DNA of 64,000 nucleotides, taken from the NCBI RefSeq assembly GCF_003334405.1, contig NZ_QOWM01000005.1; one strand, written 5' to 3'. Shown piece by piece: positions 27,271 through 35,035 of the stretch. Under the pieces are notes generated by a model, which ran no database searches, was not told the origin of the DNA, and was given only the letters and a program-made list of their open reading frames with translations. A program made the translations under genes and the position numbers. Position 1 is the first letter of the stretch. Every line of letters begins with the position of its first letter. This stretch comes from Escherichia coli. Its GTDB lineage: Bacteria; Pseudomonadota; Gammaproteobacteria; Enterobacterales; Enterobacteriaceae.

Positions 27271-28254
27271 ATGGCAACACGAATTGAATTTCACAAGCAC
27301 GGTGGCCCGGAAGTACTTCAAGCCGTAGAGTTCACTCCTGCCGATCCGGCGGAGAATGAAATCCAGGTCGAAAATAAAGCCATCGGCATCAATTTTATCG
27401 ACACATATATCCGCAGCGGCCTTTACCCGCCGCCATCGCTACCCAGCGGATTAGGCACCGAAGCAGCAGGCATCGTGAGTAAAGTCGGCAGTGGTGTAAA
27501 GCATATTAAGGCAGGCGATCGTGTAGTCTATGCGCAGTCGGCGTTAGGCGCTTACAGCTCTGTGCATAACATTATTGCGGATAAAGCGGCGATTCTGCCT
27601 GCGGCAATTTCTTTTGAGCAAGCTGCGGCATCCTTCCTGAAAGGCTTAACGGTTTATTATCTGCTGCGCAAAACCTATGAAATTAAACCCGATGAACAGT
27701 TCCTGTTCCACGCAGCGGCTGGCGGCGTTGGCTTAATTGCCTGCCAGTGGGCAAAAGCCCTGGGCGCGAAACTTATCGGCACCGTAGGAACCGCGCAAAA
27801 AGCGCAGAGCGCGCTAAAAGCGGGCGCGTGGCAGGTTATTAACTATCGTGAAGAGGATCTGGTCGAGCGGTTAAAAGAGATCACCGGCGGTAAGAAAGTG
27901 CGCGTGGTGTACGATTCCGTGGGCAGAGACACCTGGGAACGGTCGCTGGATTGCCTGCAACGCCGCGGCTTAATGGTCAGTTTTGGCAACTCATCAGGTG
28001 CGGTTACCGGTGTGAACTTAGGCATTCTCAATCAAAAAGGCTCGTTGTATGTGACACGCCCTTCCCTGCAAGGCTATATCACCACGCGGGAGGAATTAAC
28101 CGAGGCCAGTAATGAACTGTTCTCTTTGATTGCCAGCGGTGTGATTAAGGTCGATGTCGCCGAGCAGCAGAAATATCCGCTGAAGGATGCGCAGCGTGCG
28201 CATGAGATTCTGGAAAGCCGGGCGACGCAAGGTTCCAGCCTGCTGATTCCATAA
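27271..28254 (+). CDS. qorA: NADPH:quinone oxidoreductase (zeta-crystallin-like MDR family)
   Basis: ORF track 27163..28254; ATG at 27271 with GGAGGA upstream gives 327 aa; AAAGGVG nucleotide-binding motif. Confidence 0.93.
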   Translation: MATRIEFHKHGGPEVLQAVEFTPADPAENEIQVENKAIGINFIDTYIRSGLYPPPSLPSGLGTEAAGIVSKVGSGVKHIKAGDRVVYAQSALGAYSSVHNIIADKAAILPAAISFEQAAASFLKGLTVYYLLRKTYEIKPDEQFLFHAAAGGVGLIACQWAKALGAKLIGTVGTAQKAQSALKAGAWQVINYREEDLVERLKEITGGKKVRVVYDSVGRDTWERSLDCLQRRGLMVSFGNSSGAVTGVNLGILNQKGSLYVTRPSLQGYITTREELTEASNELFSLIASGVIKVDVAEQQKYPLKDAQRAHEILESRATQGSSLLIP

Positions 28255-28261
28255 AAGAAAT

Positions 28262-28293
28262 AGGGCTTCCACCTGGGAAGCCCTTTCTTTTTA
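28262..28293. terminator. Bidirectional terminator after qorA (also nearest terminator for pspG)
   Basis: agggcttcc-acctg-ggaagccct stem with TTCTTTTT tail; A-run upstream gives T-run on minus strand. Confidence 0.8.
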
Positions 28294-28419
28294 TAGTTCG
28301 GCTGTATGTAGGGTACAGCACGATGAATCTGTTAGAGGCGCAATAGTGACAGATTTGATTATCAATTCCTATTTTGTTCTAAGGATAAAACCTTAGGTTG
28401 TGATCATCCGCACAATCCC

Positions 28420-28662
28420 TTAGTAACGCCAGCGGTCATAACGCTGATATTTCGGCACTTTTGGTGCTTTAATCGCCTTAATAACCCACACCACCGCAAT
28501 CGCCAGTAGTAACCACGGCAGCAACTTAATCATCAATGCCAGCATACCGCCGAGGAACATAATGGCCGTCGCCACAACCAGCGCGGCGATAATGCCCAGC
28601 AACGAAACGCCGGTGACCATCAGCATGACAAAAAAGCCAATCACAAAAAGTAGTTCCAGCAT
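28420..28662 (-). CDS. pspG: Phage-shock protein G, small inner-membrane protein
   Basis: ORF track 28420..28872; ATG at 28662 with GGGAGAG upstream gives 80 aa, entirely hydrophobic helices. Confidence 0.8.
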   Translation of the reverse strand: MLELLFVIGFFVMLMVTGVSLLGIIAALVVATAIMFLGGMLALMIKLLPWLLLAIAVVWVIKAIKAPKVPKYQRYDRWRY

Positions 28663-28695
28663 GATGCTCTCCCAAATATGAAATCTCTTGCTGGC

Positions 28696-28713
28696 ATTAC
28701 AAGAATCATGCCA
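28696..28713 (-). promoter_or_regulatory. Candidate sigma-54 promoter TGGCATGATTCTTGTAAT upstream of pspG
   Basis: GG-N10-GT spacing resembles -24/-12 element (TGGCAC-N5-TTGC); sits about 35-50 nt upstream of pspG start; psp genes are known sigma-54/PspF dependent. Confidence 0.45.
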
Positions 28714-28795
28714 AAAATAATCTATTGATTTAACAGCAAAACGCCCCGCGACGGTGCGCAGGGCGTGGTGAATTTGACTACTTTTTGGTGAAAAG

Positions 28796-29833
28796 TTAAC
28801 GCTTATCCGCCACCAGTTTGAGCGCGTGTTCCAGCACATTAATGTCTGCACCCGCTTTATGGGCATTTTCACTTAAATAACGCCGCCACTGCCGCGCGCC
28901 AGGAATACCCTGGAACAAGCCCAACATATGCCGGGTAATATGGCCGAGATACGTCCCCTGGCTGAGTTCACGCTCAATGTACGGATACATGGCGCGCACT
29001 ACCGCCACCGGATCGGCATCGGTATCCGAGGAACCAAAGATCTCCCGGTCTACCGCCGCCAGAATACCCGGATTCTGATACGCCTCGCGCCCGACCATCA
29101 CGCCATCCATATGTTGCAGGTGTGCTTTGGCCTCTTCCAGCGACTTGATACCACCGTTAATCGACATTGTCAGATGCGGAAAGTCACGCTTCAGTTGATA
29201 CACACGCGGATAATCGAGCGGCGGGATTTCACGGTTTTCTTTCGGGCTTAACCCCGAAAGCCAGGCTTTACGTGCGTGGATGATGAACATCTCACACTCG
29301 CCTTTGCCGGAAACGGTATTGATGAAATCGCAGAGAAATTCATAGCTGTCCTGGTCGTCGATGCCAATACGCGTTTTCACCGTCACCGGAATCGACACCA
29401 CATCGCGCATCGCTTTCACGCAGTCGGCAACCAGCTGCGCATTACCCATCAGACACGCACCAAACATGCCGTTCTGCACCCGGTCAGACGGGCAGCCGAC
29501 ATTCAGGTTGATCTCATCATATCCGCGCGCTTCTGCCAGCTTTGCACACTGCGCCAGCGCCGCCGGATCGCTACCGCCCAGTTGCAACGCTACCGGATGT
29601 TCTTCTTCACTGTACGCCAGATAATCACCTTTACCGTGAATAATCGCCCCTGTGGTCACCATTTCGGTATACAGCAACGTATTGCGGGAAAGCAGACGCA
29701 AGAAATAGCGGCAATGTCTGTCCGTCCAGTCGAGCATTGGTGCAACGCTAAACCGACCACTCCAGTGAACGTCAGTTTTTTCAGGCATTGCGCTGGTTTG
29801 GTTGATTTTTTGCATTTCAGAATTACCGTGCAT
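28796..29833 (-). CDS. dusA: tRNA-dihydrouridine synthase A
   Basis: ORF track 28796..29839; ATG at 29833 (345 aa); FMN-binding TIM-barrel Dus family sequence. Confidence 0.9.
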
Positions 29834-30126
29834 TTTCAAATGTAGAGATTATTTTATCGATATATCATGGGGTTATGTTATTCAGCATCACTATTCAGGA
29901 GGCTCAATAGCGGGGTACTATACCATAACAACAGGAAGCGCCTGTCTCATTGCAAAAGAAAATTGAGATCCTCTCAAGGCATGAAGCTCTCACGAAGTGA
30001 TGGAAATAATCTTATTAGCCGTTAACTTTGTTAAGGCCAATGATAAACAATCCAGGTTCGACGATAAATAAAAAATCACACATTAAACTCTGGTGATATA
30101 TCTCCCTGCTAATAGCATTGATAGAG

Positions 30127-34865: not shown

Positions 34866-35035
34866 TGAAAGAACCTTTTTACATTATGAGCGTCAATATC
34901 AGTGTACCGTTAAATCCGATGATTCGGGTTTGCGTAGCGCCGCGCGAAACATGAGCGGATACCACAGAATTTCCCATGACTTTCTGCTATCCTTGCCGCG
35001 CATTTGCATTATTAACCAGAGGCTTTACATCGTTT

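What the first reader, a model, noticed from the sequence alone, without database searches (positions are those of the whole stretch)
28663..28795. pspG promoter: sigma-54-like element embedded in an inverted repeat
The candidate -24/-12 element TGGCATGATTCTTGTAAT (minus strand) lies inside the near-palindrome CTGGCAT...ATGCCAG (28691-28713). Further upstream, acgcccCGCGACGGTGCGCAgggcgt (about 28740-28765) is another inverted repeat that could be an enhancer-binding-protein (PspF-type) site. The -12 element reads GT rather than GC, so the assignment is tentative.
Basis: partly seen in the sequence, partly recalled or inferred. Interest (0 to 1): 0.3.

Follow-up and report, generated by a model that had tools for sequence, protein, structure and literature searches.

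The report
Known sigma-54 promoter of E. coli pspG

Summary
The window is E. coli and is identical to K-12 MG1655 across this region. The stretch 28663-28795 is the whole dusA-pspG intergenic region.

The -24/-12 element TTGGCATGATTCTTGTA (28714..28698, minus strand) is real. It is the best sigma-54 PWM hit in the 64-kb window and is present upstream of pspG in 80 of 80 orthologous loci. It is also a published sigma-54 ChIP-seq, ChIP-chip and gSELEX site. The "GT" at -12 is the family norm (75 of 80 loci, and also at pspA), not a weakness.

The "palindrome" around the -24 element has only 6+6 bases. It is no more than chance gives, and 1 of 80 orthologs keeps it.

The GC-rich inverted repeat (28766..28741) is real but is not the activator site. 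It follows the dusA stop codon, is followed by a T-run, and keeps its stem by compensatory changes while its loop varies. It is the dusA intrinsic terminator.

The likely PspF enhancer is the conserved dyad TAGTCAAATTCACCA (28780..28766), immediately upstream of the hairpin. A consensus IHF site (28730..28718) lies between the hairpin and the promoter.

Verdict: already known and ordinary.

The parts
28420..28662 (-). pspG coding sequence (80 aa; ATG at 28662)
   Evidence: ORF. Annotated as pspG in 5,426 of 5,426 E. coli genomes. Identical to K-12 b4050.
28667..28673 (-). Shine-Dalgarno-like GGGAGAG, 4 nt upstream of the ATG
   Evidence: Read from the sequence. GGGAGA is retained in most orthologs.
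28687..28687 (-). Predicted transcription start (G), 12 nt downstream of the -12 T; 25-nt leader; K-12 coordinate 4262815
   Evidence: Inferred from the motif geometry. It agrees with 'distance 25' in Bonocora et al. 2015 Table 1. Not measured here.
28698..28714 (-). Sigma-54 -24/-12 promoter element TTGGCATGATTCTTGTA (GG at 28712-28711, GT at 28700-28699)
   Evidence: PWM score 17.1 bits, top of the window. Present in 80 of 80 orthologous loci. Published as a ChIP-seq site (OS40), a Salmonella ChIP-chip site and an RpoN gSELEX peak.
28692..28713 (.). Judged to be chance.
   Evidence: I7. Chance level. Kept in 1 of 80 orthologs.
28718..28730 (-). IHF-consensus site AATCAATAGATTA (WATCAANNNNTTR), at -31 to -43
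   Evidence: Exact consensus match: 5 in the window against 2.7 expected. Its position is fixed, 17 nt before TGGCA in orthologs. The strict consensus is present in 31 of 80 loci and a relaxed form in 44 of 80; C, A and TTA are invariant or nearly so.
28731..28740 (-). T-tract TTTGCTGTTA following the hairpin (the U-tract of the dusA terminator)
   Evidence: At least 5 T in the 8 nt after the stem in 73 of 75 orthologs.
28741..28766 (-).
   Evidence: Terminator-like in the scan. RNA fold -21.5 kcal/mol, z -2.7. 95.6% of cells paired, 8 of 10 pairs with compensatory changes, 0 of 500 shuffles as good, slid controls 39-56%. It is the only helix RNAalifold predicts. The loop is the least conserved part of the region.
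28766..28780 (-). Probable PspF enhancer (UAS): imperfect dyad TAGTCAAATTCACCA, centred at about -86
   Evidence: Positions T1, G3, T4, C13 and A15 are invariant in 75 sequences. A PWM from non-Escherichia pspG loci finds the pspA enhancer. It aligns with the published PspF consensus TAGTGTAATTCGCTAACT. The distance to the -24 GG is fixed at 61-63 nt, rising to 69-71 and 83 nt in distant genera.
28781..28794 (-). Conserved block TTTTCACCAAAAAG. TTCACCA repeats the right half of the UAS 20 bp upstream, so this may be a second, partial PspF site.
   Evidence: Direct repeat D5 with 20-bp spacing. pspA has the same 20-bp arrangement. Conserved as TTTCRCYAAAA. The 30-mer PWM hits the pspA enhancer at 14.3 and 12.0 bits against a null maximum of 5.6.
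28796..29833 (-). dusA coding sequence (stop codon TAA at 28798-28796); the upstream gene, on the same strand as pspG
   Evidence: dusA is upstream of pspG in 79 of 80 loci.

Best explanation
The region is the complete control region of E. coli pspG, read on the minus strand, and it shares its space with the 3' end of dusA.

The order of elements is: dusA stop codon; PspF enhancer (conserved dyad TAGTCAAATTCACCA at about -86, with a partial repeat 20 bp further upstream); dusA intrinsic terminator (10-bp GC-rich stem, 6-nt loop, U-tract) at -79 to -44; IHF site at -43 to -31; sigma-54 -24/-12 element TTGGCATGATTCTTGTA; start site at about 28687; a 25-nt leader with a Shine-Dalgarno sequence; pspG.

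RNA polymerase carrying sigma-54 sits on the -24/-12 element as a closed complex. Under envelope stress PspF is released from PspA. Bound at the enhancer and brought to the polymerase by an IHF-induced bend, PspF uses ATP to open the promoter.

The GC-rich inverted repeat acts in RNA, not as a protein site in DNA: it ends dusA transcripts inside the enhancer-promoter loop.

Shown (literature plus this analysis): the sigma-54 site and its binding, the dependence of pspG on PspF and sigma-54, and the conservation and covariation patterns. Inferred: the exact TSS, the exact PspF and IHF contacts, and terminator activity.
For: Identity: the 601 bp around pspG are identical to K-12 MG1655, and pspG and dusA are annotated in all 5,426 E. 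coli genomes.

Sigma-54 element: PWM 17.1 bits, the best hit in the window. Present in 80 of 80 orthologs, with TTGTA at -12 in 75 of 80. ChIP-seq site OS40 is marked as confirmed, and pspG is up-regulated when sigma-54 is overexpressed. Salmonella ChIP-chip enrichment is 39 on TGGCATGATTTTTGTAAG. RpoN holoenzyme gives a gSELEX peak in the dusA-pspG spacer.

PspF dependence: stated, including that pspG has one UAS and is induced 20-fold.

Enhancer position: the conserved dyad; the pspG-derived PWM recovers pspA sites at L001 212-228 and 232-248, 20 bp apart, and the second coincides with the published PspF consensus; the phasing is conserved at 61-63, 69-71 and 83 nt.

Terminator. In Yersinia the stem has a wholly different sequence but still pairs. 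In Biostraticola the hairpin is absent, and in Brenneria it lies on the other side of the UAS; the UAS, IHF site and promoter persist in all three.

IHF: a perfect consensus at a conserved position. The UAS-IHF-promoter layout is the one described for pspA.
Against: I could not read the primary paper (Lloyd et al. 2004). The measured PspF and IHF footprints and any mapped TSS at pspG are therefore not cited directly.

The match of the pspG block to the published 18-nt PspF 'consensus' is only 11 of 18, and 119 sites in the window match as well or better. The enhancer assignment therefore rests on conservation and the PWM cross-check, not on that match.

The strict IHF consensus holds in only 31 of 80 orthologs.

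No 3'-end data for dusA were available, so terminator activity is inferred.

The outer 5' arm of the hairpin (CACGCC) abuts the UAS, so a PspF footprint could extend a few bases into the stem.
Confidence: 0.85

Rival explanations
1. One reading: the GC-rich inverted repeat (28741-28766) is the PspF (enhancer-binding protein) site in DNA.
For: It is a real, non-chance inverted repeat. It sits upstream of a sigma-54 promoter at -54 to -79, and bEBP sites are often dyads. Its outer arm is well conserved.
Against: Stem positions change in a compensatory way and the loop is unconserved. That pattern indicates RNA pairing, not protein recognition. Yersinia has a different stem sequence, Biostraticola lacks the hairpin, and Brenneria has it on the other side of the UAS. 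It matches the published PspF consensus at only 5 of 18 positions. It is followed by a T-run in 73 of 75 orthologs and lies right after dusA. A neighbouring block explains the enhancer better.
Confidence: 0.06
2. The hairpin has two roles. It terminates dusA, and it also serves pspG control as a fixed-length spacer or bendable segment in the enhancer-promoter loop, or as a point where dusA transcription interferes with PspF occupancy of the UAS, which lies in the dusA 3' UTR.
For: The UAS-to-promoter distance is held at 61-63 nt in 75 loci and changes only by about one or two helical turns elsewhere, so the length of the hairpin is constrained. dusA-pspG synteny is kept in 79 of 80 loci. Every dusA transcript must cross the UAS.
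Against: Length constancy follows from the phasing requirement alone, whatever fills the gap. Biostraticola and Brenneria manage without a hairpin in that position. There are no expression data linking dusA and pspG.
Confidence: 0.12
3. The 6+6 palindrome TGGCAT/ATGCCA around the -24 and -12 elements is functional, for example as an operator for a repressor or as a second, divergent sigma-54 site.
For: One arm is the -24 element itself and the other lies at -10 to -5, where a bound protein would block the polymerase.
Against: It is at chance level. The downstream arm varies even among Escherichia species, and 1 of 80 loci keeps it. On the plus strand TGGCAT is followed by no TTGC-like -12 element, and the plus strand gives no PWM hit there.
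Confidence: 0.02

Closest known systems
E. coli pspG (yjbO) promoter, as characterised by Lloyd et al. 2004 (J Biol Chem 279:55707) and mapped in later sigma-54 genome-wide studies
   Same: It is the same locus and the same sequence: 100% identical to K-12. The motif is the same one listed in ChIP-seq, TTGGCATGATTCTTGTA, 25 nt from pspG.
   Different: Nothing differs. This is that promoter.
E. coli pspA (pspABCDE) promoter: sigma-54, PspF UAS I and II, IHF
   Same: Same layout, UAS then IHF site then -24/-12 element. Same unusual TTGT at -12. Related enhancer sequences with TTCRCYA repeats 20 bp apart.
   Different: pspA is reported to have two UAS and 100-fold induction, against one UAS and 20-fold for pspG. 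The pspA enhancer lies at about -96 and -116, against about -86 (and a partial site at -103) at pspG. pspA has no terminator hairpin inside the loop; its enhancer overlaps the divergent pspF promoter instead.
Rho-independent (intrinsic) terminators
   Same: GC-rich 10-bp stem, 6-nt loop and a U-rich tail, placed 30 nt after the stop codon of dusA, with covariation in the stem.
   Different: It lies between the enhancer and the IHF site of the next gene's promoter, an unusually tight packing. Its activity has not been measured here.

Membership tests
Sigma-54 (-24/-12) promoter | GG and GC doublets exactly one helical turn apart within TGGCAC-N5-TTGC, scoring like known sites | tested here: met
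   TGGCAT-GATTC-TTGT. PWM 17.1 bits, which would rank 14th of 42 real sites, and is the top hit of the window. The -12 doublet is GT rather than GC. This variant is conserved in 75 of 80 orthologs and shared with pspA.
Sigma-54 (-24/-12) promoter | Bound by sigma-54 holoenzyme | tested here: met
   From the literature on the identical sequence (identity shown): ChIP-seq OS40 with FAT 15, in vitro gSELEX peak, Salmonella ChIP-chip. No binding experiment can be run with these tools.
Sigma-54 (-24/-12) promoter | Transcription depends on rpoN and on an enhancer-binding ATPase | tested here: met
   Literature statements that pspG transcription requires sigma-54 RNA polymerase activated by PspF, and that pspG is up-regulated on sigma-54 overexpression. 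The primary paper was not readable.
Sigma-54 (-24/-12) promoter | Start site about 12 nt downstream of the -12 element | not testable with these tools
   Predicted at 28687 from the geometry. The dRNA-seq paper I tried is not held.
PspF enhancer (UAS) | Sequence related to the experimentally defined pspA UAS | tested here: met
   A PWM from 68 non-Escherichia pspG blocks hits pspA at L001 212-228 (14.9 bits, above all 104 null chunks) and at 232-248 (7.6 bits), which is the published consensus TAGTGTAATTCGCTAACT. The direct match to that consensus is only 11 of 18 and is not specific on its own.
PspF enhancer (UAS) | Conserved in sequence and in helical phase relative to the promoter | tested here: met
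   Five invariant positions in 75 sequences. Distances of 61-63 nt (75 loci), 69-71 nt (3 loci) and 83 nt (2 loci).
PspF enhancer (UAS) | Protected by PspF in footprinting, and required for induction | not testable with these tools
   PspF binding to a pspG UAS is stated, but no coordinates were available to me.
Intrinsic terminator (of dusA) | Stable GC-rich hairpin followed by a U-tract, downstream of a stop codon on the same strand | tested here: met
   The stop codon is at 28798-28796 and the hairpin at 28766-28741. T-rich tail in 73 of 75 orthologs.
Intrinsic terminator (of dusA) | Pairing, not sequence, is what is conserved | tested here: met
   95.6% of cells paired, 8 of 10 pairs with changes on both sides, 0 of 500 shuffles as good, slid controls 39-56%. 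RNAalifold agrees.
Intrinsic terminator (of dusA) | dusA transcripts end in the U-tract | not testable with these tools
   No 3'-end mapping data were accessible.
IHF binding site | Match to WATCAANNNNTTR, placed between the enhancer and the promoter | tested here: met
   AATCAATAGATTA at 28730..28718. Its position is fixed in orthologs, but the strict consensus holds in only 31 of 80.
IHF binding site | Bound by IHF, and IHF stimulates transcription | not testable with these tools
   From my recollection of the Lloyd et al. 2004 abstract, IHF activates pspG. That paper is not held.

The most novel reading that the evidence does not exclude
The dusA terminator is nested inside the pspG enhancer-promoter loop, and the PspF enhancer lies in the dusA 3' UTR. 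This arrangement is kept from Escherichia to Yersinia. The most novel reading not excluded is that it is a functional coupling: dusA transcription crossing the UAS, or PspF bound there acting as a roadblock, tunes pspG basal expression or dusA termination.
Probability: 0.1. Interest if true: 0.35.

Novelty: already known. Interest (0 to 1): 0.07.

Why it matters
It matters little as a discovery. pspG and its sigma-54, PspF-dependent promoter have been textbook members of the phage-shock regulon since 2004.

The useful outcome is a corrected, base-level map of a very compact control region, showing which repeat is the activator site, which is the neighbour's terminator and which is chance. It is also a reminder that a GT at -12 is a conserved signature of psp promoters and not a defect.

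Tried and rejected
- **Rfam:** a scan of 27500-29500 at permissive E-values gave only two sub-threshold ctRNA hits, both on the qorA/pspG terminator, and nothing in the finding.
- **Leader folding:** neither the native 5' leader nor a dusA read-through leader folds better than shuffles (z +0.5 and -0.1). The 15-nt inverted repeat I1 (28650-64 / 28686-700), which would cover the start codon, is therefore not supported.
- **Published PspF consensus:** direct matching to the 18-mer is non-specific, with 119 sites in the window at 11 of 18 or better. I did not use it as evidence on its own.
- **REP element or other repeated sequence for the hairpin:** rejected. The locus is single-copy per genome, and the hairpin is conserved in position, with covariation, across genera.
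- **Sigma-70 promoter scan:** nothing on the minus strand upstream of pspG.
- **Papers I could not obtain:** Lloyd et al. 2004, the Thomason et al. dRNA-seq paper, Weiner et al. 1995 and Jovanovic et al. 1996.

Full report
**What the region is.** The window is E. coli chromosome. The ORFs around the finding are dnaB, qorA, an 80-aa membrane protein and dusA. A 601-bp query across the finding hits all 5,426 complete E. coli genomes, where the features are annotated pspG and dusA. The 601 bp around pspG are identical, base for base, to K-12 MG1655, so K-12 experiments apply directly. The finding's coordinates, 28663-28795, are exactly the dusA-pspG intergenic region. Both genes are on the minus strand, with the dusA stop codon at 28798-28796 and the pspG ATG at 28662.

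**Observation 1: the -24/-12 element.** The minus strand reads TTGGCATGATTCTTGTA at 28714..28698. The loose pattern TGGCAYN5TTGY is not rare in itself: 2 matches in the window against 0.99 expected. I therefore built a PWM from the 41 other intergenic sigma-54 sites bound in ChIP-seq (Bonocora et al. 2015) and scanned both strands. The pspG site scores 17.1 bits. That is the best hit in the window, would rank 14th of 42 real sites, and is reached 0.16 times per random window. Changing GT to GC would add about 4 bits.

The site is also in the literature. It is ChIP-seq peak OS40, with exactly this motif, 25 nt from pspG, flagged as confirmed in EcoCyc. RpoN holoenzyme gives an in vitro gSELEX peak in the dusA-pspG spacer. 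The Salmonella ortholog has a ChIP-chip enrichment of 39 on TGGCATGATTTTTGTAAG. Held papers state that pspG transcription requires sigma-54 RNA polymerase activated by PspF.

From the geometry, the start site should be the G at 28687 (K-12 4262815), which leaves a 25-nt leader.

**The GT at -12.** In 80 orthologous loci from Escherichia to Yersinia, Rahnella and Brenneria, a sigma-54 motif lies upstream of pspG in all 80. The -12 region reads TTGTA in 75 of them, TTGCT in one and TTGAA or TTGGA in four. pspA has the same TTGT. Huvet et al. 2011 noted that at pspA GT replaces GC in almost all species. GT is thus a signature of psp promoters.

**Observation 2: the palindrome.** On one strand the arms are TGGCAT (28692-28697) and ATGCCA (28708-28713), six bases each with ten between them. 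Perfect 6-nt inverted repeats with a 3-20 nt spacer occur 0.71 times on average in shuffles of this 133-nt region. Two are observed, and 19% of shuffles do as well. The downstream arm (-10 to -5) varies even among Escherichia species, and only 1 of 80 loci keeps an inverted copy of its -24 hexamer there. I take it as chance.

**Observation 3: the GC-rich inverted repeat.** It is real, with arms at 28741-28750 and 28757-28766, and unlikely by chance: the shuffle mean is 0.03, and 2.5% of shuffles have one. Read on the minus strand it is ACGCCCTGCG-CACCGT-CGCGGGGCGT followed by TTTGCTGTTA. It begins 30 nt after the dusA stop codon and is picked up as terminator-like. As RNA it folds at -21.5 kcal/mol (z -2.7).

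In a 75-sequence alignment, 95.6% of cells in the ten pairs form standard pairs, against 39-56% when the partner column is slid. Eight of ten pairs show changes on both sides, and none of 500 shuffles reaches the observed values. RNAalifold predicts this helix and no other. The loop is the least conserved stretch of the whole region. The 8 nt after the stem contain at least 5 T in 73 of 75 sequences.

dusA is the upstream neighbour in 79 of 80 loci; the exception is a 547-bp locus. In Yersinia the stem has an unrelated sequence (GCCTGCCAG/CTGGCAGGT) but still pairs. In Biostraticola there is no hairpin between the enhancer-like block and the IHF site. In Brenneria roseae a hairpin lies upstream of that block instead. 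Conserved pairing, a free loop, a U-tract and a movable position are what an RNA terminator shows, not a protein-binding site. The repeat matches the published PspF consensus at only 5 of 18 positions.

**Where the enhancer probably is.** Immediately upstream of the hairpin lies TAGTCAAATTCACCA (28780..28766). In 75 sequences, positions T1, G3, T4, C13 and A15 are invariant and most other positions nearly so. The commonest form, TGGTCAAATTCACCA, is an imperfect dyad, TGGT...ACCA. Twenty base pairs further upstream, TTCACCA recurs (28792..28786) inside a conserved TTTCRCYAAAA block that runs up to the dusA stop codon. The pspA control region has the same arrangement, AATTCGCCA-N11-AATTCGCTA.

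A PWM built only from the 68 non-Escherichia pspG sequences, when scanned over the K-12 pspF-pspA region, puts its best hit at L001 212-228 (14.9 bits, above the maximum of 104 null chunks of equal size). Its second hit is at 232-248, which is 20 bp away and coincides with TAGTGTAATTCGCTAACT, the PspF enhancer consensus cited to Lloyd et al. 2004. The 30-mer PWM gives 14.3 and 12.0 bits against a null maximum of 5.6.

The distance from the dyad centre to the -24 GG is 61-63 nt in all 75 Enterobacteriaceae loci, 69-71 nt in Biostraticola and the two Brenneria, and 83 nt in Yersinia and Rahnella. These are steps of about one and two helical turns, as expected for an activator that must face the polymerase across an IHF bend.

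One caveat applies. The raw 11 of 18 match to the published consensus is not specific, since 119 sites in the window do as well, and I could not read the footprint data. Mehta et al. 2013 state that pspG has one UAS and pspA two. That fits a single strong dyad plus a partial repeat.

**IHF.** Between the terminator's T-tract and the promoter lies AATCAATAGATTA (28730..28718), a perfect WATCAANNNNTTR. Its position is fixed in orthologs, 17 nt before TGGCA. The strict consensus survives in 31 of 80 loci and a relaxed form in 44 of 80, and the CA...TTA core is invariant or nearly so. The UAS-IHF-promoter order is the one described for pspA. That IHF stimulates pspG is my recollection of the Lloyd et al. 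abstract, not something I could cite from a held text.

**Mechanism.** Sigma-54 holoenzyme forms a closed complex on 28714..28698. PspF, freed from PspA under envelope stress, acts from the enhancer at about -86. IHF bends the DNA at about -37, and ATP hydrolysis by PspF opens the promoter. Transcription then starts near 28687. dusA transcripts cross the enhancer and stop at the hairpin inside the loop. The binding of sigma-54 and the PspF dependence are shown in the literature. The exact contacts, the start site and the terminator activity are inferred.

**Comparison and novelty.** This is not merely like a known system: it is the known pspG promoter. The only points I did not find stated in the held papers are the nesting of the dusA terminator between enhancer and IHF site, and the helical-turn steps in spacing across genera. 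Both are modest and expected consequences of a compact intergenic region. A functional coupling between dusA transcription and pspG control is not excluded, but nothing here supports it.

**Verdict.** Already known; low interest.

Noticed in passing
window 28253-28363 (minus strand): K-12 annotates the sRNA PspH (b4758) here, just downstream of pspG. It is described as derived from the pspG 3' UTR, as a sponge of the sRNA Spf, and as possibly having its own promoter. The stretch folds far better than shuffles (-37 kcal/mol, z -5.4). Rfam gave no family match.
   Followed up: partly
window 28262-28284 (both strands): A 9-bp GC-rich hairpin with T-runs on both sides lies between the convergent genes qorA (+) and pspG/pspH (-). 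It looks like a bidirectional intrinsic terminator. It also produced the two weak ctRNA_p42d Rfam hits, which I regard as spurious.
   Followed up: partly
window 35216-35232 (plus strand): A second sigma-54-like motif, CTGGCACATGACTTGCC (PWM 14.0 bits), lies in the sense orientation inside an 827-aa ORF at 34976-37459. From K-12 coordinates the ORF is probably plsB; this is my inference and was not checked. The motif sequence does not appear in the main text of Bonocora et al. 2015.
   Followed up: partly
window 28765-28794 (dusA-pspG spacer): Shimada et al. 2021 list an in vitro gSELEX peak for NtrC, not only for RpoN, in the dusA-pspG spacer. The PspF-type half-site TTCACCA differs by one base from the NtrC half-site TGCACCA given. 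That might explain cross-binding in vitro.
   Followed up: no
L079 about 1296-1316 and L081 (Brenneria loci): In Brenneria roseae the enhancer-like block is a perfect dyad, TTAGTC-N5-GACTAA, and the IHF-like site sits inside its own inverted repeat (GCTGATAAATCAATAAGTTATCAGC). The pspG leaders there are 93-116 nt, against 25 nt in E. coli.
   Followed up: no
window 29834-29839: The mechanical ORF for dusA starts at a TTG two codons upstream of the ATG used in the K-12 annotation: 347 aa against 345 aa. This is of no consequence for the finding.
   Followed up: no
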